A program made the translations under genes and the position numbers. The notes beneath the pieces were generated by a model. That model made no database searches, was not told the origin of the DNA, and saw only the letters and a list, made by a program, of their open reading frames with translations. Positions 1,241 through 16,839 of a stretch of 45,254 nt of DNA are shown here, piece by piece. The DNA comes from a virus (taxonomy: Duplodnaviria > Heunggongvirae > Uroviricota > Caudoviricetes), in the IMG/VR virus record IMGVR_UViG_643348545_000006, positions 1-45,254 of that record; one strand, given 5' to 3'. Numbering within the stretch: position 1 is the stretch's first letter; every line of letters begins with the position of its first letter.

Positions 1241-1307
1241 GTGGTCACGTGCCTTTACAGCATGACCGCCGCCACTATAGCTGGTGGGCGGCGATATGGG
1301 TTGAACA

Positions 1308-3779
1308 TTAAAAATCAGCCTGACTCGGGATCAGTTTTTGCCAGATAGCTGAAACGTATTTTGCCTGATAACGGGCGTCATCAAGTGCATTATGGCGCTC
1401 ACCTTCGAATGGGGTAGCAGTTCTGGCATCGAAGTCTATGGCTTTCCCCAGCTCAACGATTGTGCGTACATCGCGATCGTTGTAGTAACGCCACGGGCAG
1501 GGGATCCCCTGCCGTTCGTATGAACGGCGCAAAATCGTGTTGTCGAAGTTGGCTCCATTTCCCCAGACCTGAACAAAAAATTCACCGGAGTTTTCGTCGA
1601 TAAATTCCCGCAATTGTAACAGTGCATCATCTAACGGGATTTCATCGGTCATAATGGCAGATTGCGCTTCGCGTGATTGCTTAAGCCACCATTTAATGGT
1701 GTCCCGATCAATGACCCCGCCAGCAGTTTCCAGATCGATAGTCTTACTAAATTCCGGTCCCATATCTCCGGTTTGCGGATCGAAAAATATTGCACCTATT
1801 GAGATGATCGGGGCATCAGGATTTTTTCCCATGGTTTCAAGGTCAATCATCAGATGGTGCCACAACCTGCTGGTGGATGTGATAACGTGATGACCGTTCA
1901 CCGTAATTAAGGGATCTGCCGTCTCGCCAGTTTCACTATCGCTGGCGTGATCCTGAGCGCTGCCAGCATTCTCCTTGTGTGGATGTTCAGCGCCTTCCAT
2001 TTCCTCCGGATCATCTTCCTGAACTTCAACCTGATACTCTTCATCGAATGTTTCCTGGTATGTTGCGTCGCCCATCACCGCGCCACAATCAGGGCAGTTG
2101 CCGCCGCCGGTCTGACCGCAGGCGGTGCAGATCTTTTCCGGTTCCTGTTGCACTACTGGTTCAGGTTGTTTCGTTTCTGGCTCGTTTTGTAACGCATTTG
2201 GGCTGTTTTGTTCCGCTTTCTGGTCGTTCTGTTCCGATTCTTGCTGGTTCTGGTCTACAGAATCGCGGGTTTCAATCCCCTTTACCCATTTCGGATCATT
2301 CGGGTCGCTAATCCCTGCAACAAATTCTCCGCGAGAGGCAGCAAGCAACTTATCGGCGTCAGGCTGGCTGATACTGGCTGCCTGCATAATTTTGTTTACT
2401 TCGTCAGCGGTAACTTTTACCAGGTCTGGTTGTGCGGTCGTGTCAGATGCATCAGTATTTTGTTGTGAACCTGTGTATGTGCCGTTTTTGCGTGCGAAGT
2501 ATTCCTCTTTTGTGATTTCCGTAGCTCCCAAGGCTAGTGCTTTTTCCAGACCAGAAAGTTTGTTTGCGCGACCGTATTTTTCGCCATCCTTGTCGGTGAA
2601 GAGGAAGTAGAACGGCCCCTCACGCTCTACAGATGGTTCGACTTCCACTTTGCATTCGGTTTTTTCGTTGCCCGGAATTGCCGTTTCCACTGCATCAGTT
2701 TCTGGTACTGGCGACGGGAGAGTATCAGTTGCGCTCTGATTTCTTCCTTCATCTTCAAACACGCCCTTTGTAGTCAGGTATTCAGTAATGTATTTGTTCA
2801 GTGCCACAGGGTCTTTGTGAATGTCGATCGGACGTTCACGGACAAGGCCAAAAATAGTCTGGCGGTCGTAGCGAAGGGCATCAGGCTGTTTGCGCATTGA
2901 TGCCGAGATACGCTTCCAGTCTTCGCGGTCGTTGTCGATAACTTCATTTTTTGCCCAGCGATGGATGCTGCCGTCAATGTTTCCGGCATCCACATCACCA
3001 GGCCAGAGAGCGTAGGCCAGTTCGTCATCCAGTGTTTTCCATGTCTGCTTGTATTCGCGATGAATGGCAGCAATGACCGGGCTGATTTTTCCTGTTGAAT
3101 TTTCACTGTGCTGTTGATTGGTTCTGGCGCGGGCGAGATCAACAACAGACGTGTATTTTCCGGTTTCCTTGCGTTCACCTTCGCGACGTTTTTTCCAGAT
3201 GCGCATCTCTGCCTGAATTTCGGGCCATTTAGCACCAGGAATACATTTATGCTTAACCCACCCAATGGCGTGCAACTTAAGCTCCGGATACATGGCGTTA
3301 ACTTCTGGCATTTTCATCAACGCTTCAACGATATGTCCGTCGAATGTTGCCATGTCTTCCTGCAACAATTCCTGTGCGCTAATAACCATATCAACGGTGA
3401 TGTTTTCACATGTGTCGAACTTAACCATGACAGCGTTCTGTACTTCAGGGGCCAGCTTGTCAAAAGTGACGTTCATCGGATCGGATTCAGTCTCAACCGG
3501 GACAAAGGAAGCAGACTCCTCATCCCAGCGGTTTTCCTGCATATATTCAGCATCCCAGGAATCGAGGGCAGGGCGGGGTATACCGGGTTTATCCTCGCAG
3601 ACAAGAAATTTATAAGCGCAGTCCTGAGCAGCCGGATAATGCTCCAGGAATTGCCAGTGAAATTTTGCGCGGGCGCGACGTTCATCACCGGCTTCAATGG
3701 CAGTGGCTACAGCGACGGCACCTTCTTCCTTTATTGCCTGTTCGTCCGGAATGGCGGCGCAAATAAAGACTTTACTCAT
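1308..3779 (-). CDS. Prophage exonuclease, 823 aa, with Cys4 zinc ribbon and C-terminal DEDDh-type 3'-5' exonuclease domain (YdfE-like N-terminus)
   Basis: N-terminus MSKVFICAAIPDE resembles the Qin ydfE fragment as recalled; internal CTACGQTGGGNCPDCG zinc ribbon; C-terminus carries DLETMG, NGANFD and H-x4-D (HNALDDARY) motifs typical of DnaQ-like exonucleases. Confidence 0.75.
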   Translation of the reverse strand: MSKVFICAAIPDEQAIKEEGAVAVATAIEAGDERRARAKFHWQFLEHYPAAQDCAYKFLVCEDKPGIPRPALDSWDAEYMQENRWDEESASFVPVETESDPMNVTFDKLAPEVQNAVMVKFDTCENITVDMVISAQELLQEDMATFDGHIVEALMKMPEVNAMYPELKLHAIGWVKHKCIPGAKWPEIQAEMRIWKKRREGERKETGKYTSVVDLARARTNQQHSENSTGKISPVIAAIHREYKQTWKTLDDELAYALWPGDVDAGNIDGSIHRWAKNEVIDNDREDWKRISASMRKQPDALRYDRQTIFGLVRERPIDIHKDPVALNKYITEYLTTKGVFEDEGRNQSATDTLPSPVPETDAVETAIPGNEKTECKVEVEPSVEREGPFYFLFTDKDGEKYGRANKLSGLEKALALGATEITKEEYFARKNGTYTGSQQNTDASDTTAQPDLVKVTADEVNKIMQAASISQPDADKLLAASRGEFVAGISDPNDPKWVKGIETRDSVDQNQQESEQNDQKAEQNSPNALQNEPETKQPEPVVQQEPEKICTACGQTGGGNCPDCGAVMGDATYQETFDEEYQVEVQEDDPEEMEGAEHPHKENAGSAQDHASDSETGETADPLITVNGHHVITSTSRLWHHLMIDLETMGKNPDAPIISIGAIFFDPQTGDMGPEFSKTIDLETAGGVIDRDTIKWWLKQSREAQSAIMTDEIPLDDALLQLREFIDENSGEFFVQVWGNGANFDNTILRRSYERQGIPCPWRYYNDRDVRTIVELGKAIDFDARTATPFEGERHNALDDARYQAKYVSAIWQKLIPSQADF

Positions 3780-3873
3780 TTTGTTTTACCTCATTACAGA
3801 TTTCAGGGTGAACGAATCCCTGCCATTGCTGGCATTTTTAATCCGTTGGTATGGCGTTAATATGGCTGGCGGG

Positions 3874-4062
3874 TTATCCAGCCGGTATTTCGTTATTCAG
3901 GTTCAGCGATACTTTTTTTAACGGGAGGCATTCACCGGGGATTTTTTGTTCGTCCCTTACCTGAATGCAGGATGACTTACTGTCATAAATTCCGGTAATC
4001 ACATTTTGTGGCTCACCCGTTATAAGAAAAACGGTCATCACCAGTGCAAATGCTGAAGTCAC
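3874..4062 (-). CDS. ydfD: YdfD-like small lysis protein
   Basis: 62-aa translation MTSAFALVMTVFLITGEPQNVITGIYDSKSSCIQV... closely matches recalled Qin YdfD; translationally coupled (4-nt overlap) to dicB upstream. Confidence 0.75.
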   Translation of the reverse strand: MTSAFALVMTVFLITGEPQNVITGIYDSKSSCIQVRDEQKIPGECLPLKKVSLNLNNEIPAG

Positions 4063-4247
4063 TGCTGTTCTCCGATAATACCAAGTTCAAGAAGGGCAAT
4101 TCTGGAAAGTATGGAATTATCATTGAGAAGATAAGGTTCATATTTTCTCATCTTAATGGCATCTTCCGTAAACTCCCGGTTACTGAGCAGAACACCAATA
4201 TCAAAACAACCTTCAGACGTATTAACGTTTGGTAATAACGTTTCCAT
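4059..4247 (-). CDS. dicB: Cell division inhibitor DicB
   Basis: 62-aa translation METLLPNVNTSEGCFDIGV...FTEDAI... closely matches recalled E. coli DicB (MKTLLPNVNTSEGCFEIGV...); same size; sits directly downstream of DicF as in Qin. Confidence 0.85.
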   Translation of the reverse strand: METLLPNVNTSEGCFDIGVLLSNREFTEDAIKMRKYEPYLLNDNSILSRIALLELGIIGEQQ

Positions 4248-4427
4248 TATCGCGTCCTCAACAATGAATTTTGTGATGCGGTGCCTGGTGCCTCCAGGTG
4301 ACGTTAACCAGTTAACAATTAACGCCGGATACAGAGCATTCCCGTTACGCCCGTAAAAGACCGCTTGTTTTAACTGTTCCGCGTGCGCTGAGCCGCATTC
4401 ACCGCATCACAAAATTCACTTTAAAAA

Positions 4428-4480
4428 GGGCGGCAGAGCAGTCACGGAGTAAAACTGATACCGCCAAATGTCACCAGAAA
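4428..4480 (-). ncRNA. dicF: DicF small RNA (ftsZ-targeting sRNA)
   Basis: Minus-strand sequence TTTCTGGTGACATTTGGCGGTATCAGTTTTACTCCGTGACTGCTCTGCCGCCC followed by a T-run matches recalled 53-nt DicF with one mismatch; upstream 8-bp stem (4517-4552) fits a processing structure. Confidence 0.8.
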
Positions 4481-4822
4481 ATTGATAACAGAGGGCGTTG
4501 TAGCGGGGTTGTCACTTAAGCGTATGGTCAACCTGACAACCCGGTGCATTTTCTGGAGCAATGGAGGAAACCCCAGCCATACTTACCGCCGCGCCATTTC
4601 GCGGATTGCCACAACCGGAAGCGCACGGTCGACGAAAATTTAACGACAGGCTATCTATGAACCAGCTACCTCGCCGTGCGCTTTCGCGTTATGGTCTGAC
4701 TTTTCAGGGAAATATCCTTTCAGTAAACTGTCAGTGCCGGATTCTTATCCGTGTCCGGCGCACGACCACACGCTGTCACGAGAGGTCTCCATTCTCAACC
4801 AGTAACCTCAATGGAGGATAAA

Positions 4823-5017
4823 ATGTCAGAGCAGGAGTTAAAACTTGGTGCATGTTATTGTGTTCTCAAGGAGCTGGTACACATGCTTCCATCTACTCAG
4901 TATCAACAGTTAGTTGGCAATTTAAATCAGCGAATCGAAGCTATGTTAAAATCTGATGGTTTTAATAACGTAGAAACGCTGATGCTAAAAAGATATCTTG
5001 ATGGATTAATCAGATAA
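4823..5017 (+). CDS. Hypothetical small protein (64 aa), AT-rich, opposite in orientation to the leftward early operon
   Basis: ATG at 4823 preceded by GGAGGA with about 5-nt spacing; markedly AT-rich coding sequence; overlaps the 3' end of the convergent 116-aa gene by 12 nt. Confidence 0.4.
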   Translation: MSEQELKLGACYCVLKELVHMLPSTQYQQLVGNLNQRIEAMLKSDGFNNVETLMLKRYLDGLIR

Positions 5018-5356
5018 CATTTTTTTACGGCGTTCATATTCGTTAATATTTATGAAGCCTGTTGCCAGAAGCAGTTCGTTAATTTCATGGTTGTTTGGCT
5101 GTTTCTGGCTCTTTGAACTGGGATCTTCCACTTCTTTTTCTGCAAATTGTTTTGCTGTATCCTCTGTGCCATGGATATTTAAAGCTGTATCTGAAAACAG
5201 CCCAGTAAACGCATCGCGCACATTACGAGCCATATTATCAGTGTCTTTTTTTGTTACCGATTCCAATTCAAGTTCGTTCAGACGATGACGAAGTGTGTGT
5301 GCTGCAATCTCCTGGATTGAAGGAGGTAAATCTTTAAATTCCATCGTCAACCTCAT
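5006..5356 (-). CDS. Hypothetical early-left operon protein (116 aa)
   Basis: ORF translationally coupled to the upstream 77-aa ORF (start and stop share 1 nt at 5356); no recognisable motif. Confidence 0.5.
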   Translation of the reverse strand: MRLTMEFKDLPPSIQEIAAHTLRHRLNELELESVTKKDTDNMARNVRDAFTGLFSDTALNIHGTEDTAKQFAEKEVEDPSSKSQKQPNNHEINELLLATGFININEYERRKKMLSD

Positions 5357-5589
5357 CAGTCAGTGTTTCTGGTTAACCAGCGACGCGCGCCAGCTTCAGT
5401 TTTAAACGTTTTGCTTCTGGTATACGTCATCGCGGTAAACGTACCGTCCTGGTTGGGGAACACGCCACATACCAGAGATTCGCTGTTGCCAAGATCGATA
5501 GTATCCATGCTGACCTCATTTCCCCTTAACGCCGGGGTAGCGGAACAAAAACCTGCTGCATAGTTATTAAAGTTGAACCCTGCCGTCAT
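5356..5589 (-). CDS. Hypothetical early-left operon protein (77 aa), first gene downstream of the left operators
   Basis: ORF begins about 100 bp downstream (minus strand) of the paired left operator palindromes; no recognisable motif. Confidence 0.5.
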   Translation of the reverse strand: MTAGFNFNNYAAGFCSATPALRGNEVSMDTIDLGNSESLVCGVFPNQDGTFTAMTYTRSKTFKTEAGARRWLTRNTD

Positions 5590-5687
5590 GTTCTTACGCC
5601 TCGGGCTGGCTACTTACCCCCTGACCACTGCCTGGTAACTCGAAGTATTGCCCTGCGTTCTGTGGGGAGGGTGGGTGATGAATAAAC

Positions 5688-5728
5688 AATAGCACTGCTA
5701 TTTTATTCTGTAAATAGTAATGCTATTG
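5688..5728. promoter_or_regulatory. Left operator pair (OL-like): two 17-bp palindromic repressor sites
   Basis: AATAGCACTGCTATT (5688-5702, dyad-symmetric about a central base) and AAATAGTAATGCTATTG (5712-5728), centres 25 bp apart; same motif family recurs in the repressor/cro intergenic region. Confidence 0.55.
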
Positions 5729-5741
5729 TTTTTTGGAGGTA

Positions 5742-5768
5742 AGAAAAAAAAACCACCCGAAGGTGGTT
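5742..5768 (-). terminator. Rho-independent terminator ending the repressor-antitoxin-toxin operon
   Basis: On the minus strand, stem AACCACC / GGTGGTT with a 4-nt loop followed by a run of 9 T; located just after the toxin stop and before the left operators. Confidence 0.6.
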
Positions 5769-5782
5769 GTTGGTAGGAATGA

Positions 5783-6073
5783 TTAACAGCTTTTGTTTGG
5801 ATACTGCCTTCGTGAGTGAACTACATTTACGATCTCGATGTTAGATGCTGTTACTCGGTAAAGTATTATGTAGTTAGGATGGGTCACTATCTCACGAAGG
5901 CCTAGAGCTCTTTCGCTTGGTGGATACAGGTAAGGGTGTTCAGTAAGTGACAAAACTGATGTTTCAATGCGTATTTTTAGTCTACGTGCAGCGGGAGGGT
6001 TTTCCTTGGCAATATAGGCTACGATCTGACGCAAATCATCACGCGCAGAAGGTAGCCATAAAATGGGCAGCAT
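5783..6073 (-). CDS. RelE/ParE-family type II toxin
   Basis: 96-aa translation has the RelE/ParE-like pattern (LPILWLPSARDDL...YIAKENP...GLREIVTHPNYIILYRV...IEIVNVVHSRR); start overlaps the upstream small ORF by 1 nt. Confidence 0.8.
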   Translation of the reverse strand: MLPILWLPSARDDLRQIVAYIAKENPPAARRLKIRIETSVLSLTEHPYLYPPSERALGLREIVTHPNYIILYRVTASNIEIVNVVHSRRQYPNKSC

Positions 6074-6264
6074 TACTCACTCCTGTTCGTCGAAGCTATT
6101 TGCGCAATAAGGTTTTCCATTTCAGCCATTACTTCGTCATGCGGAATTGCAGGACGGGGGTCTGCGAGGCTTGCTGCCACTTTGGTGCGTAACCATTCGT
6201 TATAGCTGTTTTCTTGTTCGATTGTTTCAAATTCTGAAATTATCGGGGAAAGGACTGTACTCAT
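6073..6264 (-). CDS. Putative antitoxin (63 aa) partnered with the RelE/ParE toxin
   Basis: Small acidic ORF directly upstream of and overlapping the toxin gene; GAGGAGG ribosome binding site; 17 bp after the repressor stop, suggesting co-transcription. Confidence 0.65.
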   Translation of the reverse strand: MSTVLSPIISEFETIEQENSYNEWLRTKVAASLADPRPAIPHDEVMAEMENLIAQIASTNRSE

Positions 6265-6281
6265 GTTCTAACCTCCTCAGA

Positions 6282-6782
6282 TTAGGCGCGAAGACCTTTT
6301 TGCGCCTCTAGCCACCGCGCAACGGTTTCTTCAATTGATTCTTTTTTCTCCTTCATTTCCTTAAGCATTTTCTCTTTGTCTTCTTTTGGGAAAGCCCTGA
6401 ACGTCTGGATCAAATCTCGCTCTATAGGTTCTATATTAAACGGAAGTTCGTTTTCCGATTGTTCCATCTCTGCGGGTAAAGCGACAACATTATCCTGCTG
6501 CAGTTCTTGGGGGTACATCCTTACAATTCGTAACAAGTCTGCCATATCTGGTCTAATTGACTCAGGCGGAACTTGTAGCAACCCAGCGAACTTGATAACA
6601 GCCTCTAGATTTAAAGGTGTCTGACCATTTAGATAATGGCTTACTGCCCCTTGTGTCGAAAAACCCAGAATTTCTGCCGCACGCTCTTGGGTTAACCCAA
6701 GTTGAGTTTTTTTCGTCGTCCAGATTTCTTTCAGTCTCTGGGCGGCTTGCAGGTCGATCTCTGACAGGGGTTTTCTTTTCAT
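6282..6782 (-). CDS. Prophage repressor, HTH XRE family (cI/RacR-like position), no S24 peptidase domain evident
   Basis: 166 aa with N-terminal helix-turn-helix (QERAAEILGFSTQGAVSHYLNG); divergent from a Cro-like gene across an operator-containing intergenic region. Confidence 0.8.
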   Translation of the reverse strand: MKRKPLSEIDLQAAQRLKEIWTTKKTQLGLTQERAAEILGFSTQGAVSHYLNGQTPLNLEAVIKFAGLLQVPPESIRPDMADLLRIVRMYPQELQQDNVVALPAEMEQSENELPFNIEPIERDLIQTFRAFPKEDKEKMLKEMKEKKESIEETVARWLEAQKGLRA

Positions 6783-6816
6783 ACCTTCAATTCTAATAAG
6801 ATTATTAATCTCTTTG

Positions 6817-6858
6817 AAATAGCAGTGCTATTTACTTTTAAAAATAACAATGCTATTA
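6817..6858. promoter_or_regulatory. Right operator pair (OR-like) in the repressor/cro divergent promoter region
   Basis: AAATAGCAGTGCTATTT (6817-6833, 17-bp palindrome) and AAATAACAATGCTATTA (6842-6858), centres 25 bp apart, between divergent repressor and cro-like genes. Confidence 0.55.
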
Positions 6859-6889
6859 ATATTCATGGTCACATAACATGAGGTGAACA

Positions 6890-7153
6890 ATGAATCTTGG
6901 AGAATATTTGCATCATTCCCGTATAACCCAGAAAGATTTTGCTGAAATTGTTGGGGTAACCCAAGGGATGGTAAGCCATGTTATTACTGGACGGGCGAAA
7001 CTTACGGGGGGGAAAGTTTTACGCTGGTGTGAAGCAACAGGGTGGGTAGTGACCCCGCACGAGATTGATAGCAGTACTTACCCCAACCCAACCGATGGCA
7101 TACCTGTTGACTATCAGGCTAACACACAACCCGCGCTGGGAGTTGATTCATGA
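6890..7153 (+). CDS. Cro-like HTH regulator (YdaS-like)
   Basis: 87 aa, HTH motif (QKDFAEIVGVTQGMVSHVITG), divergent from the repressor; first gene of the rightward operon. Confidence 0.7.
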   Translation: MNLGEYLHHSRITQKDFAEIVGVTQGMVSHVITGRAKLTGGKVLRWCEATGWVVTPHEIDSSTYPNPTDGIPVDYQANTQPALGVDS

Positions 7154-7575
7154 AAATCAAACATGAACACATCCGCATGGCGATGAATGCCTGGGCATAT
7201 CCTGATGGTGAGAAAGTGCCTGCAGCTGAAATAGCCCGGACTTATTTCGAACTTGGGATGACGTTCCCGGAACTGTACGACGACAGCCATCCGGAAGCCC
7301 TGGCCCGTAATACCCAGAAAATTTTCCGCTGGGTGGAGAAGGATACGCCTGATGCTGTTGAAAAAATTCAGGCGCTGTTACCGGCGATCGAAAAGGCGAT
7401 GCCGCCTTTGCTGGTGGCCCGTATGCGCAGTCACAGTTCTGAGTATTACCGGGAGATTGTCGAACGGCGGGATCGGCTGGTGAAGGATGTCGACGATTTT
7501 GTTGCGTCAGCGGTCGTTTTGTATGACCAGATAAATCGCGGCGGCCCGGCAGGGAATGCTGTGGTGATGCACTAA
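7150..7575 (+). CDS. YdaT-like early regulator (CII-position protein)
   Basis: 141 aa beginning MKIKHEHI, as recalled for Rac YdaT; overlaps the cro-like stop by 4 nt. Confidence 0.55.
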   Translation: MKIKHEHIRMAMNAWAYPDGEKVPAAEIARTYFELGMTFPELYDDSHPEALARNTQKIFRWVEKDTPDAVEKIQALLPAIEKAMPPLLVARMRSHSSEYYREIVERRDRLVKDVDDFVASAVVLYDQINRGGPAGNAVVMH

Positions 7576-7582
7576 AAGCACG

Positions 7583-8560
7583 GTGTTCGGGGGTTTTATG
7601 AGCAGCAAGCTTCATGGTCTTGTCTGGGAAGGGTGCGCCTTCACCGGCATGATCTTATCCAGGGTGGCGGTTATGGCCCGTCTTGCAGACTACAGCAATG
7701 ACGAGGGCGTGTCATGGCCTGCCATTGAAACTATCCGGCGTCAGATCGGTGCAAGAAGTGAATCCACAGTGAAATCGGCTATTGCAGAACTGGCGAAAGA
7801 GGGCTGGCTGACGAAGGAAGAGCGTAAGGTCGGTGGGCGTAATGTAAGCAATATCTATCGGCTTAATGTGGAAAAACTCGAAGCAGCTGCGGCGGCGGCG
7901 CGTGAGTCATATAAACCGAAAAGAAAAATTAGCCCGGCAAAAAATGACCCGTTAACAGTTGACCCGTCAAATATTGACCCCTCAACGGTTGACCCGTCAA
8001 ATTTTGATGGATCAACTGTTGATAAAAAACTGCCGATTAGGGGGGCGATGATTGACCCCGATCCGTCAGTATTAAAACCTGAACCGTCAGATAAAAGATC
8101 TTCTTGTCCGGACGCTTCGCAACCGGACCCGCAGACGGCTGAACAGGATTTTTTAACCCGACACCCTGACGCGGTTGTGTTCAGTGCGAAAAAACGCCAG
8201 TGGGGAAGTCAGGAAGATTTGGTGTGCGCACAGTGGATCTGGGGACGAATCGTGAGTCTTTACGAGCAGGCGGCCAGCGATGATGGCGAGATCACTAGAC
8301 CGAAAGAACCCAACTGGACAGCATGGGCCAATGACGTTCGCACAATGCGGATGCTGGATGGCAGAACTCACAGACAAATTTGTGAAATGTTTGGGCGTCT
8401 CCAGCGGGATTCGTTCTGGGTAAAAAACATCATGAGTCCGGCAAAACTCCGGGAAAAATGGGATGAACTGGTTATCCGCCTGGGGCGTTCGCCTGCGCAG
8501 CGTTGCGTGAATCACATTTCTGAACCGGACACTGAAATACCGCCGGGATTCAGGGGGTGA
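7583..8560 (+). CDS. Replication initiation protein (lambda O / YdaU-like) with internal iteron array
   Basis: 325 aa with N-terminal winged-helix-like region; the coding sequence contains six tandem 15-bp repeats (encoding DPxxV pentapeptides) typical of a lambdoid ori embedded in the initiator gene; followed by a DnaC-like gene. Confidence 0.7.
   Translation: MFGGFMSSKLHGLVWEGCAFTGMILSRVAVMARLADYSNDEGVSWPAIETIRRQIGARSESTVKSAIAELAKEGWLTKEERKVGGRNVSNIYRLNVEKLEAAAAAARESYKPKRKISPAKNDPLTVDPSNIDPSTVDPSNFDGSTVDKKLPIRGAMIDPDPSVLKPEPSDKRSSCPDASQPDPQTAEQDFLTRHPDAVVFSAKKRQWGSQEDLVCAQWIWGRIVSLYEQAASDDGEITRPKEPNWTAWANDVRTMRMLDGRTHRQICEMFGRLQRDSFWVKNIMSPAKLREKWDELVIRLGRSPAQRCVNHISEPDTEIPPGFRG
7944..8030. 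repeat. Putative replication origin iterons (six 15-bp tandem repeats, consensus TTGACCCGTCAA core)
   Basis: TTGACCCGTCAA exact at 7959-7970 and 7989-8000, with variants at 7945, 7974, 8004 and 8019, all on a 15-bp period inside the initiator gene. Confidence 0.6.
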
Positions 8561-8566
8561 CGTGTC

Positions 8567-9313
8567 ATGAAAAACATTGCGGCAGTTGGGGTTCTTGAAC
8601 GTATTCGCAGACTTGCACCACAGGGGGCGGTTCCACCGTACCGGACGGTGGAGGAGTGGCGGGAATGGCAACTTGCTGAAGGACGAAAACGCAGCGAGGA
8701 GATTAACCGCCAGAATCGCCAGTTGCGGGTGGAAAAAATCCTGAATCGTTCGGGCATCCAGCCTCTGCACAGCAAATGCTCGTTTGCAAATTATCAGGTG
8801 CAGAACGACGGGCAAAAATACGCGCTGAGCCAGGCCAAATCCATAGCTGACGAACTGATGACCGGGTGCACGAATTTTGTGTTCAGCGGTAAAACCGGCA
8901 CCGGGAAAAATCACCTTGCAGCGGCGATGGGCAACCGGCTGATGGTGAAGGGGCGCAGCGTGATTATCGTCACCGTGTCTGACGTCATGAGCGTGTTGCA
9001 TGACAGCTACGACAACGGCAAATCCGGGGAAAAATTTTTACAGGAGCTTTGCGGGGTTGATTTGCTGGTCCTGGATGAAATAGGCGTTCAGCGGGAGACG
9101 AAAAACGAGCAGGTGGTATTGCACCAGATAATTGATCGCCGGACAGCATCACTGTGCAGTGTCGGGATGTTAACAAACCTGAATCATGCCGCAATGAGTA
9201 CGCTTCTTGGTGAGAGGATTATGGACCGCATGACCATGAACGGTGGTCGATGGGTGACGTTTAACTGGGATAGCTGGCGTCCAAATGTCAGCAATATGAG
9301 GGTTGTGAAGTAA
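8567..9313 (+). CDS. DnaC-like helicase loader / replication ATPase (IstB-like AAA+)
   Basis: Walker A GKTGTGKNHLAAA and Walker B LLVLDEIG motifs; positioned after the initiator as in Rac ydaU-ydaV. Confidence 0.85.
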   Translation: MKNIAAVGVLERIRRLAPQGAVPPYRTVEEWREWQLAEGRKRSEEINRQNRQLRVEKILNRSGIQPLHSKCSFANYQVQNDGQKYALSQAKSIADELMTGCTNFVFSGKTGTGKNHLAAAMGNRLMVKGRSVIIVTVSDVMSVLHDSYDNGKSGEKFLQELCGVDLLVLDEIGVQRETKNEQVVLHQIIDRRTASLCSVGMLTNLNHAAMSTLLGERIMDRMTMNGGRWVTFNWDSWRPNVSNMRVVK

Positions 9314-9334
9314 TTTTGTCCGGAGGAAATTTTA

Positions 9335-10105
9335 ATGGAAACCGTATCTGACGCACTGAAAGCACTGAAAAAAGCCTCTTCACATGTGGTGGCAGCTCGC
9401 CTTGGAATCAGTCGTGAAGAGGCTGTCAACGAGCTGTGGGAACTCAAAAGAAATGGCGTCGTTGATAAAACTGGTCACACCTGGTTTCTGGCTGGCGAAG
9501 GTGAATCCCGGGTAACCGAAGAGCGGCCAGTAAAATCTGAAGCACAGGATATGCTGACCGGGGAGGTCGAACAAAAAGTTACCGCAGACATGATGATTGA
9601 GTTTATCGGTCAGGATGGGGCTAAAACGTGTGAGGAACTGGCGGGTAAGTTCGGTGTCAGTACTCGCAAGGTTGCTTCCACGCTGGCGGTGGTAACCGCA
9701 ACGGGGCGGCTGGCACGCGTTAATCAGAACGGTAAATTTCGTTACTGCATGCCGGGCGATAATTTACCAGCAGAGCCGAAAGCCGCGCTGGTAACGGAAA
9801 GTGATGGTAAGGCCTTTCCTCAGCCAGCAGGTGCTGCGTTACCAGTCCGGGAAGCCGCAACACAGGAAGAAATTAAAACAGAAACTGTGGCGGACATTGT
9901 GCAGCCGTTGCCATCGTTTACCGAAACGCAAGCAGATGAGCTGATTTTTCCGTCCCTTCGCAGGGCAAACCTGGCGCTGCGCAGGGCGAAAAGTGATGTT
10001 CAGAAGTGGGAGCGAGTCTGCGCCGCGCTGCGGGAGCTGAACAAGCACCGGGATATTGTTCGACAGATTACTGATTCTTCCCGCCGTGTTGTATCGGAAA
10101 AGTGA
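9335..10105 (+). CDS. Hypothetical phage protein (256 aa) with two winged-helix-like segments
   Basis: ORF following the DnaC-like gene; two HTH-like stretches (AARLGISREEAVNELWELKRNG and CEELAGKFGVSTRKVASTLA); function unknown. Confidence 0.55.
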   Translation: METVSDALKALKKASSHVVAARLGISREEAVNELWELKRNGVVDKTGHTWFLAGEGESRVTEERPVKSEAQDMLTGEVEQKVTADMMIEFIGQDGAKTCEELAGKFGVSTRKVASTLAVVTATGRLARVNQNGKFRYCMPGDNLPAEPKAALVTESDGKAFPQPAGAALPVREAATQEEIKTETVADIVQPLPSFTETQADELIFPSLRRANLALRRAKSDVQKWERVCAALRELNKHRDIVRQITDSSRRVVSEK

Positions 10106-10543
10106 TTGCCGGAGGCGCTTATGGCAAAAGTATTTACACAAGAAGAGCGGGAAAAAATTAAAGGGCAGGTTGTTGAACTTGTACGTCTGAGCGGTCGCGA
10201 GACGTTGCGGCAACTGGAAGCCAAGACAGGTACGACAAGATATCTGATGAGTGTTCTCGCCAGAGAGCTGGTTGCCAGTGGCGATGTATACAACTCTGGT
10301 TACGGGTTATTCCCGCCTGAACAGGCGCGTAAGGACTGGCAAAACGCCCGCAAAAAACTCTCAAGGGCAAATCTGAAGAAACCATCTGTGGTTGATCCTG
10401 ACCTTATCTGGTCATTACCAGACGGAGAAATACGCCGCTACGACAGGCGTCAAAACATAATCTGTAGCGAGTGCCGGAAGAGTGAAGTTATGCAGCGCAT
10501 ATTGTCGTTTTATCAGGGGGATGTTCGGTATTTATTGAAGTGA
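10106..10543 (+). CDS. Hypothetical phage protein (145 aa)
   Basis: ORF abutting the previous gene stop; no recognisable motif beyond a CxxC pair. Confidence 0.5.
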   Translation: MPEALMAKVFTQEEREKIKGQVVELVRLSGRETLRQLEAKTGTTRYLMSVLARELVASGDVYNSGYGLFPPEQARKDWQNARKKLSRANLKKPSVVDPDLIWSLPDGEIRRYDRRQNIICSECRKSEVMQRILSFYQGDVRYLLK

Positions 10544-10710
10544 CGAGATTAAAGTGCATTAGTTCAGATGCAAATTGACATTTTGTGGCACAGGGTAGAG
10601 CTAGCGTGGTTGTCCGCTTTGTGCCAGAAGCGGACATAGCAGGTGCCAGATGCATTTGTTATTCTTCATTGAATTGAGCAGTATCCTTAACAGGAACTCT
10701 GAATACATAA

Positions 10711-11349
10711 ATGAAGATGAAAAACATGTCTGAAGTGTTGACCCAAGAAAAGCTTATTTTTGTTGCCCAGAGACTAAAGGCCCTCGCGCAGTCAGGCCTG
10801 ACCTATTCAAAAGACGTCTTTGACAAGGAACGCTATGAAGCCTTGCGTGAAATTGCCGCTGGACTGCTGAGTTCGCAGTTTGATATTAGCCGCAATGATT
10901 TGTTTCATGTATCGGAAACGGGTTACGCGACGCCCAAAACAGATGTGCGTGCGTTTATCCTGCGTAATAATCGTATTCTGATGGTGAAAGAGGCTGCAGA
11001 TGGATTATGGAGTCTTCCTGGCGGATGGGCAGATGTTGGAGATACACCTTCTGAAGCTGTGCGTCGAGAGGTCGAAGAAGAAACCGGATTAAAAGTCAGA
11101 GTGACTAAACTATTGGGAGTTTGGGATCGTAATCTTCACGGCCATCCGCCTTTACCCTGGCATGTTTACAAGCTGATTTTTCTCTGTGAAGAAGTAGGTG
11201 GCAGCCTGTCAATCAGCCATGAGTCACTCGATGCTGATTTTTTTGATGTCAACGACCTGCCTGAATTGTCGCTTTCAAGAATTGTGCCTGAGCAGATTGC
11301 TGTCAGCCTGAGAGTAGCGAAAGGTGATGAAAAAACATGGTTTGATTAA
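10711..11349 (+). CDS. Nudix hydrolase with N-terminal extension
   Basis: Canonical Nudix box GGWADVGDTPSEAVRREVEEETGL (Gx5Ex7REuxEExGu); coding sequence more AT-rich than the phage backbone. Confidence 0.85.
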   Translation: MKMKNMSEVLTQEKLIFVAQRLKALAQSGLTYSKDVFDKERYEALREIAAGLLSSQFDISRNDLFHVSETGYATPKTDVRAFILRNNRILMVKEAADGLWSLPGGWADVGDTPSEAVRREVEEETGLKVRVTKLLGVWDRNLHGHPPLPWHVYKLIFLCEEVGGSLSISHESLDADFFDVNDLPELSLSRIVPEQIAVSLRVAKGDEKTWFD

Positions 11350-11372
11350 CTTTCTTCTGCAACCATTAAGGA

Positions 11373-12017
11373 ATGGCAATGATATTCAACGCTAAGGGTT
11401 TTTTATTCGATATGGACGGTACGCTGGTTGATTCAACAGCCGTAGTGGAAAGCGTCTGGAGAGATTTTTGTGCAGAATACGGTCTTGATACTCAGGCTGT
11501 GATTGCTTACGCACACGGGCGGCAAACGATTGATACACTGACGCATTTTATTGGTGCAGGTGAGAAAACCAATAAAATCGCGGCCTCACTCGAAGAGGTT
11601 GAAATCAACACGACAGAAGGCGTTACTGAAGTAAAGGGGGCCGCTGCACTCTTATCAAAACTGCCACCGGATAGCTGGGCACTTGTCACTTCTGCAGGCA
11701 GAATGCTTGCCGAAAACAGGATGAAAGCGGCTAATCTCCCCTTACCCATAGTAATGGTGTGTGCAGAAGATGTAATGACGGGAAAACCAAGTCCCGAGGG
11801 TTACATCAAAGCAGCTTTGGCTTTGGGCCTTGAGCCTGGTGAATGCGTGGTATTTGAGGATGCATCTGCGGGTATAAAAGCAGGGCTGGCAAGTGGAGCT
11901 TCGGTAATAGCTGTTCAGCCTGACGCTCTGGGATCATCTGAAGCCCATGCCGTCAGCGAACTGTCTGACATTATGGTCAAGATTTCCGGAGAACGTTTCA
12001 ATATCATCTGTGGTTAA
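11373..12017 (+). CDS. HAD-superfamily phosphatase (beta-phosphoglucomutase-like subfamily)
   Basis: Motif I FDMDGTLVDS at the N-terminus, GKPSPEGY and FEDASAGIKAG downstream motifs characteristic of HAD sugar phosphatases. Confidence 0.85.
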   Translation: MAMIFNAKGFLFDMDGTLVDSTAVVESVWRDFCAEYGLDTQAVIAYAHGRQTIDTLTHFIGAGEKTNKIAASLEEVEINTTEGVTEVKGAAALLSKLPPDSWALVTSAGRMLAENRMKAANLPLPIVMVCAEDVMTGKPSPEGYIKAALALGLEPGECVVFEDASAGIKAGLASGASVIAVQPDALGSSEAHAVSELSDIMVKISGERFNIICG

Positions 12018-12581
12018 TCACGTTACACAATACGCATCAATGGACGCTGAGTAGTTCGCGAGTTTTAAACTTCCAACGTCCGCTTTTCGCTCAAAGCGGA
12101 CTAGAAGGTTAGCTTGCGTCGGACTTGGCGTATTTAAAGAAGTGCTGGTGGTGACTGGTTGTTGTGTTCCATTTCTACAGAACAAAATCACAGAAACTAT
12201 ACCCAATAGTTGTATTGAATCACTGACGAGACAGCCTCATATTTATCAGGACTGGTGTACGTCCAATACAGGAGGTTGTGGTGCTGGTTCTCAAATGTGC
12301 GCTGGCTATTGCTGCTGTAATGGCAATTTATTGCCTTGCTGTTGTTCTTATGGATCGCCTTTCTGATTGATTTCATATTGGCGAGGTGACGGGAGTTAAG
12401 TAGAATGGCTGCGGGTGCTTGAGGCTATCTGTCTCAGGCATGAACACCAAAGGCAGATAGAGAAAAGCCCCAGTTAACATTACGCGTCCTGCAAGACGCT
12501 TAACATTAATCTGAGGCCATATCTATGCTCTACACACGTAGGTTAGCCTCTTACGTGCCGAAAGGCAAGGAGAAGCAGGCT

Positions 12582-12737
12582 ATGAAGCAGCAAAAGGCGA
12601 TGCTAATCGCCCTGATCGTCATCTGTTTAACCGTCATAGTGACGGCACTGGTAACGAGGAAAGACCTCTGCGAGGTACGAATCCGAACCGGCCAGACGGA
12701 GGTCGCTGTCTTCACAGCTTACGAACCTGAGGAGTAA
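12582..12737 (+). CDS. hokD: Hok/Gef-family type I toxin (HokD/RelF-like)
   Basis: 51-aa translation MKQQKAMLIALIVICLTVIVTALVTRKDLCEVRIRTGQTEVAVFTAYEPEE matches recalled HokD; structured leader upstream and a hairpin plus terminator downstream. Confidence 0.85.
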   Translation: MKQQKAMLIALIVICLTVIVTALVTRKDLCEVRIRTGQTEVAVFTAYEPEE

Positions 12738-12904
12738 GAGACCAGGCGAGGGAGAAATCCCTCGCCACCTCTGATGAGTCAGGCATCCTCAACGCACCCG
12801 CACTTAACCCGCTTCGGCGGGTTTTGTTTTTTCCTGGCATTCTGGTTTACAATTCGCACGTCAGCCTGAACAACTGGCACCTGCTGCGCCAGCAGAGAAA
12901 ACAG

Positions 12905-13183
12905 ATGGCGCACGATACCAAATTTTACAATTCGGATAACTCTGCCGCCCCTGCCAGCAGGCACGGGCGGCGTTCTCATGCATTCAAATCTGACTGGTAT
13001 CAGCACGACCCCTGCACCGAAGAACAGGCTGAATGGCTGATTCAGTGTTACCGCAGGCGCGGATACGAGGTTAAGAAAGCCCTCAGTCTCGATTATCGTC
13101 ACTGGATAATCTCCGTCAGGCTTCCTTACTCCGAACGCCCACCGCGTCCGTCCCGCACATTCCAGCAACGCATCTGGAGGTAA
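12905..13183 (+). CDS. Hypothetical protein (92 aa), Rem-position gene between hokD and the DUF968 gene
   Basis: ATG at 12905 preceded by GAGAAAACAG; gene order hokD - small ORF - DUF968 mirrors Qin hokD-rem-ydfU. Start chosen inside the longer tracked ORF. Confidence 0.5.
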   Translation: MAHDTKFYNSDNSAAPASRHGRRSHAFKSDWYQHDPCTEEQAEWLIQCYRRRGYEVKKALSLDYRHWIISVRLPYSERPPRPSRTFQQRIWR

Positions 13184-13184
13184 C

Positions 13185-14234: not shown

Positions 14235-14246
14235 AAGAGGTGACTG

Positions 14247-15175: not shown

Positions 15176-15248
15176 ACTGCTTCAATCCGTATAAGCTTCG
15201 CAAGGCTGTATCGCGAGGCGAAATGCAAGTTTTTTTCGCACAAGGAAG

Positions 15249-16799: not shown

Positions 16800-16839
16800 T
16801 ATTGCAGGATTAGTTACGTACCGTTATTATCCTGCGCCC

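What the first reader, a model, noticed from the sequence alone, without database searches (positions are those of the whole stretch)
4823..5017. AT-rich small gene transcribed against the leftward early operon
A 64-aa ORF with a strong ribosome binding site lies on the plus strand inside the minus-strand early-left operon, between the DicF precursor region and the 116-aa gene, overlapping that gene's 3' end by 12 nt. Its base composition is strikingly AT-rich compared with its neighbours, suggesting a separately acquired gene with its own promoter. Convergent transcription here could also modulate expression of the DicF/DicB division-inhibition module.
Basis: partly seen in the sequence, partly recalled or inferred. 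Interest (0 to 1): 0.5.

Follow-up and report, generated by a model that had tools for sequence, protein, structure and literature searches.

The report
Swappable prophage gene, possibly IraP-like
The 64-codon reading frame is a real, conserved prophage accessory gene with its own promoter-like site and a shared structured leader, sitting in a slot where related prophages carry at least a dozen different small genes, and its protein looks like a shortened relative of IraP, a host protein that protects the stress sigma factor RpoS from degradation.

Summary
There is a 64-aa ORF at 4823-5017 (+) with a GGAGG site 5 nt upstream. It overlaps the convergent 116-aa ORF by 12 nt and has 35.9% GC against 52.7% for the window.

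The ORF is coding: its length is identical in Escherichia, Salmonella and Citrobacter, and dN/dS is 0.22-0.31, the lowest of the six frames. Databases annotate it only as "hypothetical" (WP_001295058.1, phrog_4987). About 3% of complete E. coli genomes carry it.

It is one occupant of a hot-swap slot between dicF and the DUF1391 gene. A conserved ~87-nt 5' UTR (4736-4822) with three hairpins and the ribosome binding site precedes at least 12 unrelated plus-strand ORF families. Promoter-like -10 hexamers sit 5-8 nt before the UTR in unrelated upstream sequences. In K-12 Rac the same position holds sieB.

The protein is a predicted three-helix bundle with weak but consistent similarity to the C-terminal ~65 residues of the RssB anti-adaptor IraP. 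Two family members pass Pfam's IraP threshold, the best hhalign result is P=4e-4, and predicted helix boundaries coincide. It lacks IraP's N-terminal ~18 residues, and fold searches were uninformative.

Acting on RssB to stabilise RpoS is inference only. Any effect on DicF/DicB is untested.

The parts
4701..4729 (+). Predicted weak sigma-70-type promoter: -35-like TTTTCA (4701-4706), 17-nt spacer, -10-like TAAACT (4724-4729). Predicted transcription start near 4736.
   Evidence: The hexamers match 8 of 12 consensus positions, below the 9 of 12 needed by the strict scan, which found nothing. In unrelated upstream sequences a -10-like hexamer sits at the same 5-8 nt distance from the first hairpin. 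Examples are TTGAGA-17-GATAAT (L012 type), TTGTCC-18-TATAAC (Salmonella), and TGnTATTAT or TGnGATAAC extended -10 forms. This is inferred, not mapped.
4736..4822 (+). Conserved structured 5' UTR shared by all cassette types. Hairpin 1 is 4737-4758. Hairpin 2 is about 4764-4787. Hairpin 3 pairs UCCAU (4788-4792) with AUGGA (4811-4815), covering part of the Shine-Dalgarno GGAGG (4813-4817).
   Evidence: Homology to distant loci (L132, L136, and the second copy in L008) begins exactly at 4735/4736. RNAalifold on 23 variants gives three hairpins, and 5 pairs of hairpin 2 show compensatory changes. I tallied 34 G.U cells against 7 A.C cells from that table, which favours the plus strand as the structured RNA. 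Covariance model R1 hits 4736-4825 at 92.6 bits, the only copy in the window. No Rfam family matches. Single-sequence folding of this window's variant is not significant (z -0.7).
4823..5017 (+). 64-aa ORF (MSEQELKLGACYCVLKELVHMLPSTQYQQLVGNLNQRIEAMLKSDGFNNVETLMLKRYLDGLIR). Predicted three-helix protein; IraP-like but lacking the N-terminal ~18 residues.
   Evidence: Sequence and family. Coding test. AlphaFold2 model with pLDDT 80 and helices 3-20, 24-44, 49-62. Pfam IraP is the top hit (E 0.062). Relatives P0128 (24.5 bits) and P0006 (24.2 bits) exceed the gathering score of 23.2. hhalign gives P 4e-4. Shuffle control.
4825..5192 (.). AT-rich variable segment (37% GC). It is the part replaced by unrelated sequence in sister prophages. 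It contains the ORF and the 3' (C-terminal) part of the convergent 116-aa ORF.
   Evidence: BLAST junctions against L002, L003, L004 and K-12 Qin: the left junction is at 4824-4830 and the right junction at 5193, 5301 or 5322. Composition.
5006..5356 (-). Convergent 116-aa ORF (phrog_2151-like N-terminus). Only its first ~55 codons are shared with sister prophages.
   Evidence: PGAP annotates only 5194-5344 as an incomplete gene in an identical copy of this region. A 119-aa Salmonella homologue with the same C-terminus accompanies the 64-aa ORF.
4480..4735 (.). Highly conserved non-coding region between DicF and the cassette promoter. K-12 Qin shares it up to 4764. Probably part of the DicF precursor on the minus strand.
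   Evidence: The 1.2-kb query around the ORF matched in 4592 of 5426 complete E. coli genomes, but only 151 cover at least 80% of it. Alignment A2 shows long invariant stretches. K-12 has a ~340-nt gap between ydfC and dicF. The minus-strand fold including DicF has z -2.7.
4428..4479 (-). DicF small RNA gene (context).
   Evidence: Rfam RF00039, 77 bits, E 2e-16.
4059..4247 (-). dicB cell-division inhibitor gene (context).
   Evidence: Pfam DicB E 4e-38; NCBIfam CellDivInhibDicB 111 bits.
5356..5589 (-). DUF1391 (YdfA/YdaF-like) gene, the right-hand anchor of the slot.
   Evidence: Pfam PF07151 E 7e-27. The same gene flanks the slot in all E. coli loci examined and flanks sieB in Rac.

Best explanation
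The feature is a self-contained prophage accessory gene (a 'moron') that reads against the early-left operon. It has three parts:
1. A weak promoter (about 4701-4729).
2. An ~87-nt structured 5' UTR (4736-4822). Its third hairpin pairs with part of the ribosome binding site.
3. A 64-aa gene (4823-5017).

The UTR is a common platform. Behind it, related prophages of Escherichia, Salmonella, Citrobacter, Edwardsiella and Pluralibacter carry at least 12 unrelated small ORFs, so the slot is exchanged by recombination. It occupies the position that sieB holds in the Rac prophage: between the division-inhibitor/small-RNA pair and the DUF1391 gene.

The 64-aa product is a soluble three-helix protein. 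It is most likely a distant relative of the RssB anti-adaptor IraP that has lost the first ~18 residues.

The proposed mechanism is inferred, not shown. In the lysogen, where leftward early transcription is repressed, the gene is expressed. Its product binds a host protein, most plausibly the ClpXP adaptor RssB, and so raises RpoS stability. On induction, strong leftward transcription across the cassette would collide with the plus-strand transcript, form antisense duplexes with it, and shut it off.

Shown: the gene is real, coding, mobile and one of many alleles, and the UTR is conserved and structured. Moderately supported: IraP-like ancestry and the promoter position. Purely inferred: RssB binding, lysogen-specific expression, and any effect on DicF/DicB.
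For: Coding and conserved:
- Full-length phrog_4987 match and RefSeq CDS WP_001295058.1.
- Homologues at 86% (Salmonella) and 72% (Citrobacter) identity with identical length and start.
- dN/dS 0.22-0.31, the lowest of six frames.
- Upstream length differences of 1 nt among UTR variants exclude a longer conserved frame.

Cassette slot:
- Sister prophages share the sequence up to 4824-4830 and then carry other plus-strand ORFs.
- Across IMG/VR loci and other fetched loci, the leader is followed by the 69-aa, 64-aa, 75-aa, 99/96-aa, 61/59/57-aa, 100-aa, 94-aa (GhoS-like), 80-aa, 63-aa and 81-aa families. It is also followed by 30-32-aa and 104-aa ORFs.
- Rac has kilR(-), KilS(-), sieB(+), ydaF(-) in the same order.

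UTR and promoter:
- The homology boundary is exactly at 4735/4736.
- Three-hairpin consensus with compensatory changes.
- Covariance-model hits of 63-112 bits in all contexts.
- -10-like hexamers at a fixed distance in unrelated upstream sequences.

IraP-like:
- Pfam PF10796 is the top hit for the window protein (E 0.062).
- It is above the gathering score for P0128 (24.5 bits, E 4.6e-5). P0128 is a member at 45% identity to the window protein, found at E 2.6e-11 by the family profile. It is also above the gathering score for P0006 (24.2 bits).
- hhalign of family against IraP family gives P 4e-4, ungapped, with the C-termini in register.
- 0-10 of 3000 composition-matched shuffles reach the real score for each of six members, against 180 and 574 of 3000 for two control cassettes.
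- Predicted helices 3-20, 24-44 and 49-62 map with a constant +18 offset onto IraP helices ending at 38 and starting at 42 and 67.
- Residues invariant in both families coincide: A10/A28, L30/L48, L55/L73, Y58/Y76, L62/L80.
- A second cassette family of the same slot (81 aa) matches IraP better: probability 67%, P 5e-5, 29% identity.

Precedent: the anti-adaptor gene iraM lies on the e14 prophage and iraL on a genomic island, as stated in PMC4045071.
Against: - BLASTP finds no similarity between the window protein and K-12 IraP.
- The window protein itself scores 14.4 bits, below Pfam's 23.2 threshold.
- hhalign probabilities are only 13-35% at 11-13% identity.
- P0129 gives no Pfam hit.
- The 64-aa and 81-aa families do not match each other significantly.
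- The protein lacks the first ~18 residues of IraP. These belong to the predicted coiled coil (residues 1-35) where the L9S mutation weakens activity (PMC4428439).
- The promoter matches only 8 of 12 consensus positions and no terminator was found.
- The hairpin covering the ribosome binding site rests on invariant bases, so it has no covariation support. It is not the minimum-energy fold of this window's variant.
- No expression data or literature on this protein were found.
Confidence: 0.5

Rival explanations
1. The gene is a real moron cassette, but the IraP resemblance is convergence between short amphipathic helical proteins. On this reading the product does something else typical of lysogen-expressed genes at this position. 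Examples are superinfection exclusion, defence or counter-defence against other phages, or modulation of another host or phage protein such as the neighbouring DicB/DicF division module.
For: - The equivalent position in Rac holds sieB, a superinfection exclusion gene.
- The other occupants of the slot are heterogeneous: GhoS-like, zinc ribbons and proline-rich micro-ORFs.
- The IraP similarity is marginal.
- Fold searches are generic.
Against: - No PADLOC defence family matches this or any other cassette protein.
- The protein has no predicted membrane segment, unlike what I recall of SieB (from memory, not tested).
- Pfam IraP is the top hit among 24,736 models for five of the six members scanned. 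It passes threshold for two, survives shuffling controls, and keeps a consistent register.
Confidence: 0.33
2. The product is an IraP-derived fragment that works against the anti-adaptor pathway rather than as an anti-adaptor. It keeps the C-terminal helices but lacks the N-terminal coiled-coil part. It could therefore pair with IraP, or occupy RssB unproductively, and so blunt RpoS stabilisation.
For: - Under the alignment the protein starts at about IraP residue 19-21.
- The IraP N-terminal coiled coil (residues 1-35, L9S) is thought to matter for inhibition (PMC4428439).
Against: - This is pure inference and nothing here tests oligomerisation.
- Half of IraP helix 1 (residues 21-38) is retained.
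- The 81-aa IraP-like cassette also begins at about IraP residue 21 in its alignment, so the short form may be the functional core of a phage version.
Confidence: 0.07
3. The ORF is not translated. What is conserved is an RNA function: a plus-strand antisense transcript, or simply part of the minus-strand early-left/DicF precursor. That RNA would regulate expression of the 116-aa gene, DicF or DicB.
For: - The flanking leader is highly conserved and structured on both strands.
- Transcription is convergent with a 12-nt gene overlap.
- No terminator was found, so antisense read-through is likely.
Against: - The substitution pattern is that of a protein: dN/dS is 0.22-0.31 only in this frame.
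- The ORF is intact and of the same length in three genera at 82-90% nucleotide identity, while the other five frames carry 4-8 stops.
- More distant protein homologues at 36-45% identity keep the same length and position in other prophages.
- The segment is absent from most prophages that have DicF.
Confidence: 0.06

Closest known systems
IraP (YaiB), RssB anti-adaptor of E. coli and Salmonella (Pfam PF10796)
   Same: Both are small, all-helical cytoplasmic proteins. There is an ungapped alignment of residues ~3-64 to IraP ~21-82, with matching predicted helix boundaries and shared invariant residues (A, L, L, Y, L). Two family members pass the Pfam threshold.
   Different: It is 64 aa rather than 86 aa and lacks the N-terminal ~18 residues of the coiled coil. 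Identity is only ~13%. It is encoded in a prophage against the early-left operon, rather than next to phoA. It has a different 5' UTR. RssB binding is untested.
IraM (e14 prophage) and IraL (genomic island), horizontally acquired anti-adaptors
   Same: They set a precedent that mobile elements carry small proteins that stabilise RpoS (PMC4045071).
   Different: No sequence relationship was tested or expected. According to that paper the known K-12 anti-adaptors share no sequence identity with each other.
sieB of the Rac prophage (and, from memory, of lambda and P22)
   Same: It holds the same position and orientation: a plus-strand gene between the division inhibitor plus small RNA (kilR/KilS, dicB/DicF) and the DUF1391 gene of a leftward early operon. 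It is thought to be expressed from the prophage.
   Different: sieB encodes a 162-aa protein unrelated in sequence. The Rac sieB region lacks the conserved 5' UTR.
Classical lambdoid 'morons' (for example bor and lom of lambda; from memory)
   Same: It is an extra gene with deviant base composition that is present or absent among otherwise similar phages and has its own promoter.
   Different: Here many alternative genes share one conserved structured leader and ribosome binding site, and no terminator is evident. I found no description of such a shared expression platform.
ydfABC-dicF-dicB operon of K-12 Qin
   Same: The flanking genes are the same (DUF1391, DicF, DicB) and the ~280 nt upstream of DicF are conserved.
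   Different: Qin has ydfB and ydfC on the operon strand and no opposite-strand cassette. Its homology to this window ends at 4764, and only a 25-bit remnant of the UTR is present.

Membership tests
IraP anti-adaptor family (Pfam PF10796) | Sequence match to the family profile at or above the curated threshold (23.2 bits) | tested here: inconclusive
   The window protein scores 14.4 bits (E 0.062): top hit but below threshold. Relatives P0128 (24.5 bits) and P0006 (24.2 bits, partly through translated leader) are above it. P0004 scores 19.3 bits and P0129 gives no hit. hhalign gives P 4e-4 and probability 35%.
IraP anti-adaptor family (Pfam PF10796) | Full-length architecture including the N-terminal coiled coil (residues 1-35, site of L9S) | tested here: not met
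   The alignment begins at IraP residue ~19-21, so the first ~18 residues have no counterpart. The importance of this region is taken from PMC4428439.
IraP anti-adaptor family (Pfam PF10796) | Same fold as IraP | tested here: inconclusive
IraP anti-adaptor family (Pfam PF10796) | Binds RssB and stabilises RpoS against ClpXP | not testable with these tools
   This needs two-hybrid or pull-down assays and RpoS half-life measurements.
IraP anti-adaptor family (Pfam PF10796) | Chromosomal locus next to phoA, with the iraP regulatory region | tested here: not met
   K-12 iraP lies between ddlA and phoA, and its upstream region shows no similarity to the cassette UTR. The ORF here is in a prophage.
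Prophage moron (accessory gene cassette) | Located between conserved phage genes and present or absent (or replaced) among otherwise homologous phages | tested here: met
   The 261-nt query spanning the ORF is at least 80% covered in 152 of 5426 complete E. coli genomes, while the flanks are far more widespread. Other ORFs replace it in L002-L004 and in IMG/VR loci.
Prophage moron (accessory gene cassette) | Base composition different from the surrounding phage DNA | tested here: met
   35.9% GC against 52.7%, in the lowest 0.7% of windows.
Prophage moron (accessory gene cassette) | Own promoter and terminator | tested here: inconclusive
   The promoter is inferred from comparative placement of -10-like hexamers but fails the strict consensus scan. 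No terminator was found.
Prophage moron (accessory gene cassette) | Expressed from the repressed prophage | not testable with these tools
   No transcript or ribosome-profiling data were available, and the literature search found nothing on this protein.
SieB superinfection exclusion proteins | Sequence similarity to SieB, or a match to a known defence-system protein model | tested here: inconclusive
   There are no Pfam, PHROG, NCBIfam or PADLOC hits of that kind. No direct comparison with a SieB sequence was made. Only the genomic position is shared.

The most novel reading that the evidence does not exclude
The ~87-nt leader and the slot behind it are a dedicated expression platform. Through it, DicF/DicB-type prophages and related elements deploy interchangeable small host-manipulating proteins. 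At least two, and perhaps three, of the cassette families (64 aa, 81 aa, possibly 75 aa) are phage versions of the IraP anti-adaptor. Lysogens would therefore gain prophage-controlled tuning of RpoS proteolysis, switched off by antisense early-left transcription on induction.
Probability: 0.2. Interest if true: 0.7.

Novelty: new variant of a known kind. Interest (0 to 1): 0.45.

Why it matters
If the IraP-like reading is right, common E. coli and Salmonella prophages carry their own regulators of RpoS stability. These include prophages in outbreak strain O104:H4 and reference strain ATCC 25922. That would add a prophage layer to the general stress response, and possibly to persistence and virulence traits that differ between strains.

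Independently of that, the shared structured leader is a compact, testable example of how prophages exchange and express accessory genes. It has a dozen interchangeable small ORFs behind it, at the position where Rac carries sieB. It also gives a handle (one RNA motif) for finding more such genes.

For the finding as originally written, the practical result is more modest. It is a genuine accessory gene, already present in databases as a hypothetical protein, and not an artefact.

Tried and rejected
- Searches of the sequenced-phage collection (INPHARED) with the ORF found nothing, by tblastn or by sensitive blastn. Sequenced phages have only the Qin-type leader up to ~4764.
- BLASTP of the ORF against K-12 IraP found nothing.
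- NCBIfam and PADLOC gave no hits.
- A PDB sequence search with the family profile gave only chance-level hits.
- The strict promoter and terminator scan of 4200-5700 found nothing. Folding of the ORF 3' end gave no convincing terminator.
- My first idea was a strong hairpin sequestering the ribosome binding site, acting as a riboregulator. It is kept only as a weak possibility. It appears in the RNAalifold consensus, but it rests on invariant bases and is not the minimum-energy fold of this window's variant (z -0.7).
- I considered that the upstream in-frame extension (GTG at 4751, 88 aa) or the translated leader of P0004 and P0006 belongs to the protein. I rejected this because the leader carries 1-nt length differences and frame changes between variants.
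- I considered that the minus strand of the ORF encodes the missing C-terminus of a longer phrog_2151-type protein. I rejected this because the minus frames have 4-7 stops.
- The 81-aa cassette looked IraP-like by eye. Pfam did not confirm this but hhalign did, moderately.
- I initially assumed the window was identical to NZ_CP116067.1 throughout. That was wrong: only parts match, at 82-98% identity.
- Literature searches for the protein sequence, accession or PHROG number returned nothing.
Full report

Yes. The plus strand carries ATG at 4823 and TAA at 5015-5017, giving 64 codons. GGAGG at 4813-4817 lies five bases before the start. The convergent minus-strand ORF 5006..5356 (116 aa) overlaps it by 12 nt.

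DicF is at 4428-4479 on the minus strand (Rfam 77 bits against a gathering score of 48). dicB is at 4059-4247 and a DUF1391 (YdfA/YdaF-like) gene at 5356-5589, both on the minus strand.

The ORF is 35.9% GC against 52.7% for the window, in the lowest 0.7% of all 195-nt windows. The low-GC stretch runs from ~4825 to ~5192.

**2. Is it a gene?**

- It matches phrog_4987 end to end (E 3e-49).
- An identical copy of the 1.2-kb region around the ORF in E. coli DETEC-S792 has it annotated by RefSeq as WP_001295058.1, "hypothetical protein". Every name attached to its cluster in public sources is "hypothetical".
- Homologues of identical length and start exist in Salmonella enterica (86% identity) and Citrobacter freundii (72%).
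- Pairwise Nei-Gojobori estimates give dN/dS of 0.27, 0.31 and 0.22 in the annotated frame. This is the lowest of all six frames in each comparison, and the other frames contain 4-8 stops.
- The comparisons involve only 20-35 substitutions each. The evidence is good but not overwhelming.
- The region upstream of the ATG differs in length by single bases between variants. The longer GTG-started frame (4751) is therefore not conserved.
- An exhaustive profile search of 1.8 billion representatives found only six proteins. They include two distant relatives of 67 and 65 aa, P0128 and P0129, at 45% and 36% identity.
- Both distant relatives sit as opposite-strand genes inside the early-left region of other prophage-like elements.
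- The 261-nt query spanning the ORF is at least 80% covered in 152 of 5426 complete E. coli genomes. It is absent from the collection of sequenced phages.

**3. What is the locus?**

Other E. coli prophages share the sequence to the left up to 4824-4830, that is, through the ribosome binding site and start codon. They then diverge completely. Homology returns at 5193, 5301 or 5322, inside or beyond the 116-aa ORF.

At the same place they carry other plus-strand ORFs: 61 aa in L002, 69 aa (phrog_4274) in L003, and an unannotated 99 aa in L004.

A scan of IMG/VR for an 18-mer of the leader returned 120 stretches. In these and the other loci fetched, the leader is followed by ten ORF families:
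- 69 aa (the commonest)
- this 64-aa ORF (second commonest)
- 75 aa
- 99/96 aa
- 61/59/57 aa
- 100 aa
- 94 aa, GhoS-like (Pfam 21.2 bits)
- 80 aa, with zinc-ribbon-type cysteine motifs
- 63 aa, with zinc-ribbon-type cysteine motifs
- 81 aa

Species representatives of Edwardsiella and Pluralibacter add 30-32-aa proline-rich ORFs and a 104-aa ORF. The site is therefore a multi-allelic cassette slot.

K-12 Qin lacks the cassette. Its homology ends at 4764, and ydfC and ydfB follow on the operon strand.

K-12 Rac has the same architecture with a different occupant: kilR(-), KilS sRNA(-), sieB(+), ydaF/DUF1391(-). The Rac sieB region does not have the conserved leader.

**4. The shared leader**

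- Homology between this window and the distant elements begins exactly at 4735/4736. This holds for L132 and L136 and for a second copy inside the Salmonella locus.
- In Citrobacter the unit follows directly after another cassette (phrog_4274-like). In Salmonella two units lie ~700 nt apart.
- RNAalifold on 23 distinct variants predicts three hairpins. Five pairs in the second hairpin show compensatory double changes. One example is CCACACG/CGTGTTGG against CTCCAT/ATGGAG against CCCAAC/GTTGGG.
- The third hairpin pairs UCCAU (4788-4792) with AUGGA (4811-4815). This covers the first three bases of the GGAGG site. It is built from invariant bases, so it has no covariation support. It is not the minimum-energy fold of this window's own variant.
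- From the pair table I counted 34 G.U cells against 7 A.C cells. This favours the plus strand as the folded RNA, although 21 of the 34 come from one invariant pair.
- A covariance model built from the alignment finds exactly one copy in the window (4736-4825, 92.6 bits). It scores 63-112 bits in all other contexts.
- No Rfam family matches.

**5. Promoter and terminator**

The strict consensus scan found nothing on either strand of 4200-5700.

Comparison is more informative. In several mutually unrelated upstream sequences a -10-like hexamer lies 5-8 nt before hairpin 1:

| Context | Promoter-like elements |
|---|---|
| This window and most E. coli copies | TTTTCA-17-TAAACT (4701-4706 / 4724-4729; 8 of 12) |
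| L012 type | TTGAGA-17-GATAAT (10 of 12) |
| Salmonella | TTGTCC-18-TATAAC |
| L128, L142, L143 | TGnTATTAT or TGnGATAAC extended -10 forms |

Together with the homology boundary at 4735/4736, this points to a transcription start at about 4736 and an ~87-nt 5' UTR. This is an inference.

No intrinsic terminator follows the ORF. The T7 run after the stop codon is not preceded by a stable hairpin. Plus-strand transcripts probably run on, antisense to the 116-aa ORF.

**6. What is the protein?**

AlphaFold2 predicts a three-helix bundle with helices 3-20, 24-44 and 49-62, at pLDDT 80 from a shallow alignment.

The only recurring sequence signal is IraP, the anti-adaptor that blocks RssB-mediated delivery of RpoS to ClpXP.

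| Test | Result |
|---|---|
| Pfam PF10796, window protein | E 0.062, top hit, residues 14-63 on profile 32-82 |
| Pfam PF10796, P0003 | E 0.072 |
| Pfam PF10796, P0004 | E 0.0018 |
| Pfam PF10796, P0006 | 24.2 bits |
| Pfam PF10796, P0128 | 24.5 bits, E 4.6e-5 |
| hhalign, six close sequences vs 17 IraP sequences | P 0.0022 |
| hhalign, with the two distant members added | P 0.0004, probability 35%, ungapped, C-termini in register |

- P0006 and P0128 exceed the curated threshold of 23.2 bits. NCBI has in fact named the Citrobacter protein (P0006) IraP.
- Part of the P0006 score comes from translated leader. P0128 has no such extension.
- I also built an HMM from the IraP alignment. Each of the six family members scores higher than all but 0-10 of 3000 composition-matched shuffles. 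Two unrelated cassette proteins sit at 180 and 574 of 3000.
- An AlphaFold2 model of IraP has helices 2-38, 42-58 and 67-82. With the constant +18 offset of the sequence alignment, the ends and starts of the helices coincide (20/38, 24/42, 49/67). The residues invariant in both families also coincide: A10/A28, L30/L48, L55/L73, Y58/Y76, L62/L80.
- A second cassette family of the same slot (81 aa) matches IraP more clearly, with hhalign probability 67%, P 5e-5 and 29% identity over 66 columns. A third family (75 aa) matches weakly.

Evidence against:
- BLASTP sees nothing.
- Identity is ~13%.
- P0129 gives no Pfam hit.
- The 64-aa and 81-aa families do not match each other significantly, although the short alignment returned is in the register expected from their IraP alignments.
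- Fold searches give only generic helical bundles. The solved IraP chain 8gkv is not among the listed matches.
- The protein lacks the first ~18 residues of IraP. These are part of the predicted coiled coil where L9S reduces activity (PMC4428439).

I put the probability of true common ancestry with IraP at roughly 0.6. I put the probability that the protein acts on RssB at roughly 0.3.

**7. How it most likely works**

Shown: a mobile unit of leader plus small gene, under purifying selection, in a slot that holds many alternatives.

Inferred:
- The unit is transcribed rightward from a weak promoter at ~4701-4729 while the leftward early operon is repressed in the lysogen.
- Translation may be tuned by the structured leader.
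- The product binds a host protein, most plausibly RssB, and thereby stabilises RpoS.
- On induction, leftward transcription from the early promoter crosses the cassette. It would interfere with the plus-strand transcript by collision and by duplex formation.

The precedent for mobile anti-adaptors is iraM on the e14 prophage and iraL on a genomic island (PMC4045071).

The transcript would start to the right of dicF and run away from it. It could therefore act only on read-through precursor RNA. Nothing here tests this.

**8. Comparison with what is known, and novelty**

The kind of thing is known: a moron in a lambdoid prophage, at the position where Rac carries sieB. The gene is already in databases as a hypothetical protein and a PHROG of unknown function.

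In my searches I did not find a description of any of the following:
- the shared structured leader serving a dozen alternative ORFs;
- the IraP-like nature of this cassette and of the 81-aa cassette;
- the equivalence of the slot to the sieB position.

The library searched is limited, so absence of a paper is weak evidence. I rate the feature a new variant of a known kind, of moderate interest.

**9. Context of the window**

The window is a lambdoid prophage related to, but not identical with, the one in NZ_CP116067.1. The matching blocks cover 1299-9447, 12393-23010 and 24302-42159 at 93-98% identity. It contains:
- an integrase at 4-1020;
- an exonuclease-like gene at 1308-3779;
- a PaaA2/ParE-type toxin-antitoxin pair at 5783-6264, next to an HTH repressor at 6282-6782;
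- NUDIX and HAD hydrolase genes at 10711-12017, which the relative lacks.

Noticed in passing
window 4736-4822; also L132 5918-6003, L136 5918-6003, L008 5913-6003 and 6602-6690, L007 551-639: A conserved ~87-nt structured leader with three hairpins precedes every cassette ORF in five enterobacterial genera. The second hairpin shows compensatory changes and the third overlaps the ribosome binding site. It has no Rfam family. Its left boundary coincides with the predicted transcription start.
   Followed up: yes
L128 about 5555 onward (81-aa ORF, P0215); 75-aa ORF in L016 and L012: Another cassette family of the same slot (81 aa, MSNTQHLK...) resembles IraP more clearly than the 64-aa protein does. 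hhalign gives probability 67%, P 5e-5 and 29% identity. The 75-aa family resembles IraP weakly (11 of 3000 shuffles). The slot may be enriched in IraP-like proteins.
   Followed up: partly
L025, L067, L040 (94-aa ORF behind the same leader): A GhoS-like (type V antitoxin endoribonuclease, DUF2622) protein is one of the cassette alleles. Public sources name it GhoS. I did not check whether a GhoT-like toxin accompanies it.
   Followed up: no
L141, L144, L142 (Edwardsiella ictaluri, E. anguillarum and a 'Chryseobacterium sp. 18061' contig): Behind the same leader lie tiny proline-rich ORFs of 30-32 aa (MRINQFGGTERPRPDGQV...). The Chryseobacterium record carrying an enterobacterial-type leader looks like contamination or a mislabelled contig.
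   Followed up: no
window 5006-5356 (-): The 116-aa ORF is a mosaic. Only its first ~55 codons are shared with sister prophages. PGAP annotates just 5194-5344 as an incomplete gene in an identical copy of this region. Even so, a 119-aa Salmonella homologue keeps the same C-terminus next to the 64-aa ORF.
   Followed up: partly
window 5783-6782 (-): A ParE-family toxin (96 aa), a PaaA2-type antitoxin (63 aa) and an adjacent HTH regulator (166 aa) lie in the early-left operon. From memory, this resembles the PaaR2-PaaA2-ParE2 three-component module described in E. coli O157:H7. GC drops to ~36% at 5700-5900.
   Followed up: partly
window 10711-11349 and 11373-12017 (+): NUDIX hydrolase and HAD-family hydrolase genes sit in the early-right region of the prophage. 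This ~2.2-kb block (10220-12393) is absent from the otherwise similar prophage of NZ_CP116067.1. It is probably metabolic cargo.
   Followed up: partly
L008 about 5620-5690 (minus strand), and L008/L011 2100-4450: In the Salmonella element the leader is present but DicF is not. At the DicF position the minus strand has a different terminator-like hairpin plus T-run (GCGGGAGGGGGCACCCGC-AATTTTTTT), perhaps a different small RNA. The same element carries 2-3 tandem C4 antisense RNA and IsrK modules with Phage_ASH genes.
   Followed up: no
L050 1268-2515: In one IMG/VR copy the 64-aa ORF is interrupted at about codon 49 by a ~1.25-kb insertion flanked by a 7-bp duplication (window 4962-4968), presumably an insertion sequence. 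This is a natural knockout that could be compared phenotypically.
   Followed up: no
window 4215-4430 (-): There is a sub-threshold Rfam match to the Salmonella sRNA STnc100 (37.7 bits against a gathering score of 47, E 1e-5). It covers the dicB start and the dicB-dicF spacer.
   Followed up: no
L139 2406-2503 (K-12 Rac): Rac carries the annotated small RNA KilS between kilR and sieB, at the position DicF holds here. The arrangement of division inhibitor, small RNA, opposite-strand gene and DUF1391 is therefore shared by Rac-type and this DicF-type prophage.
   Followed up: partly
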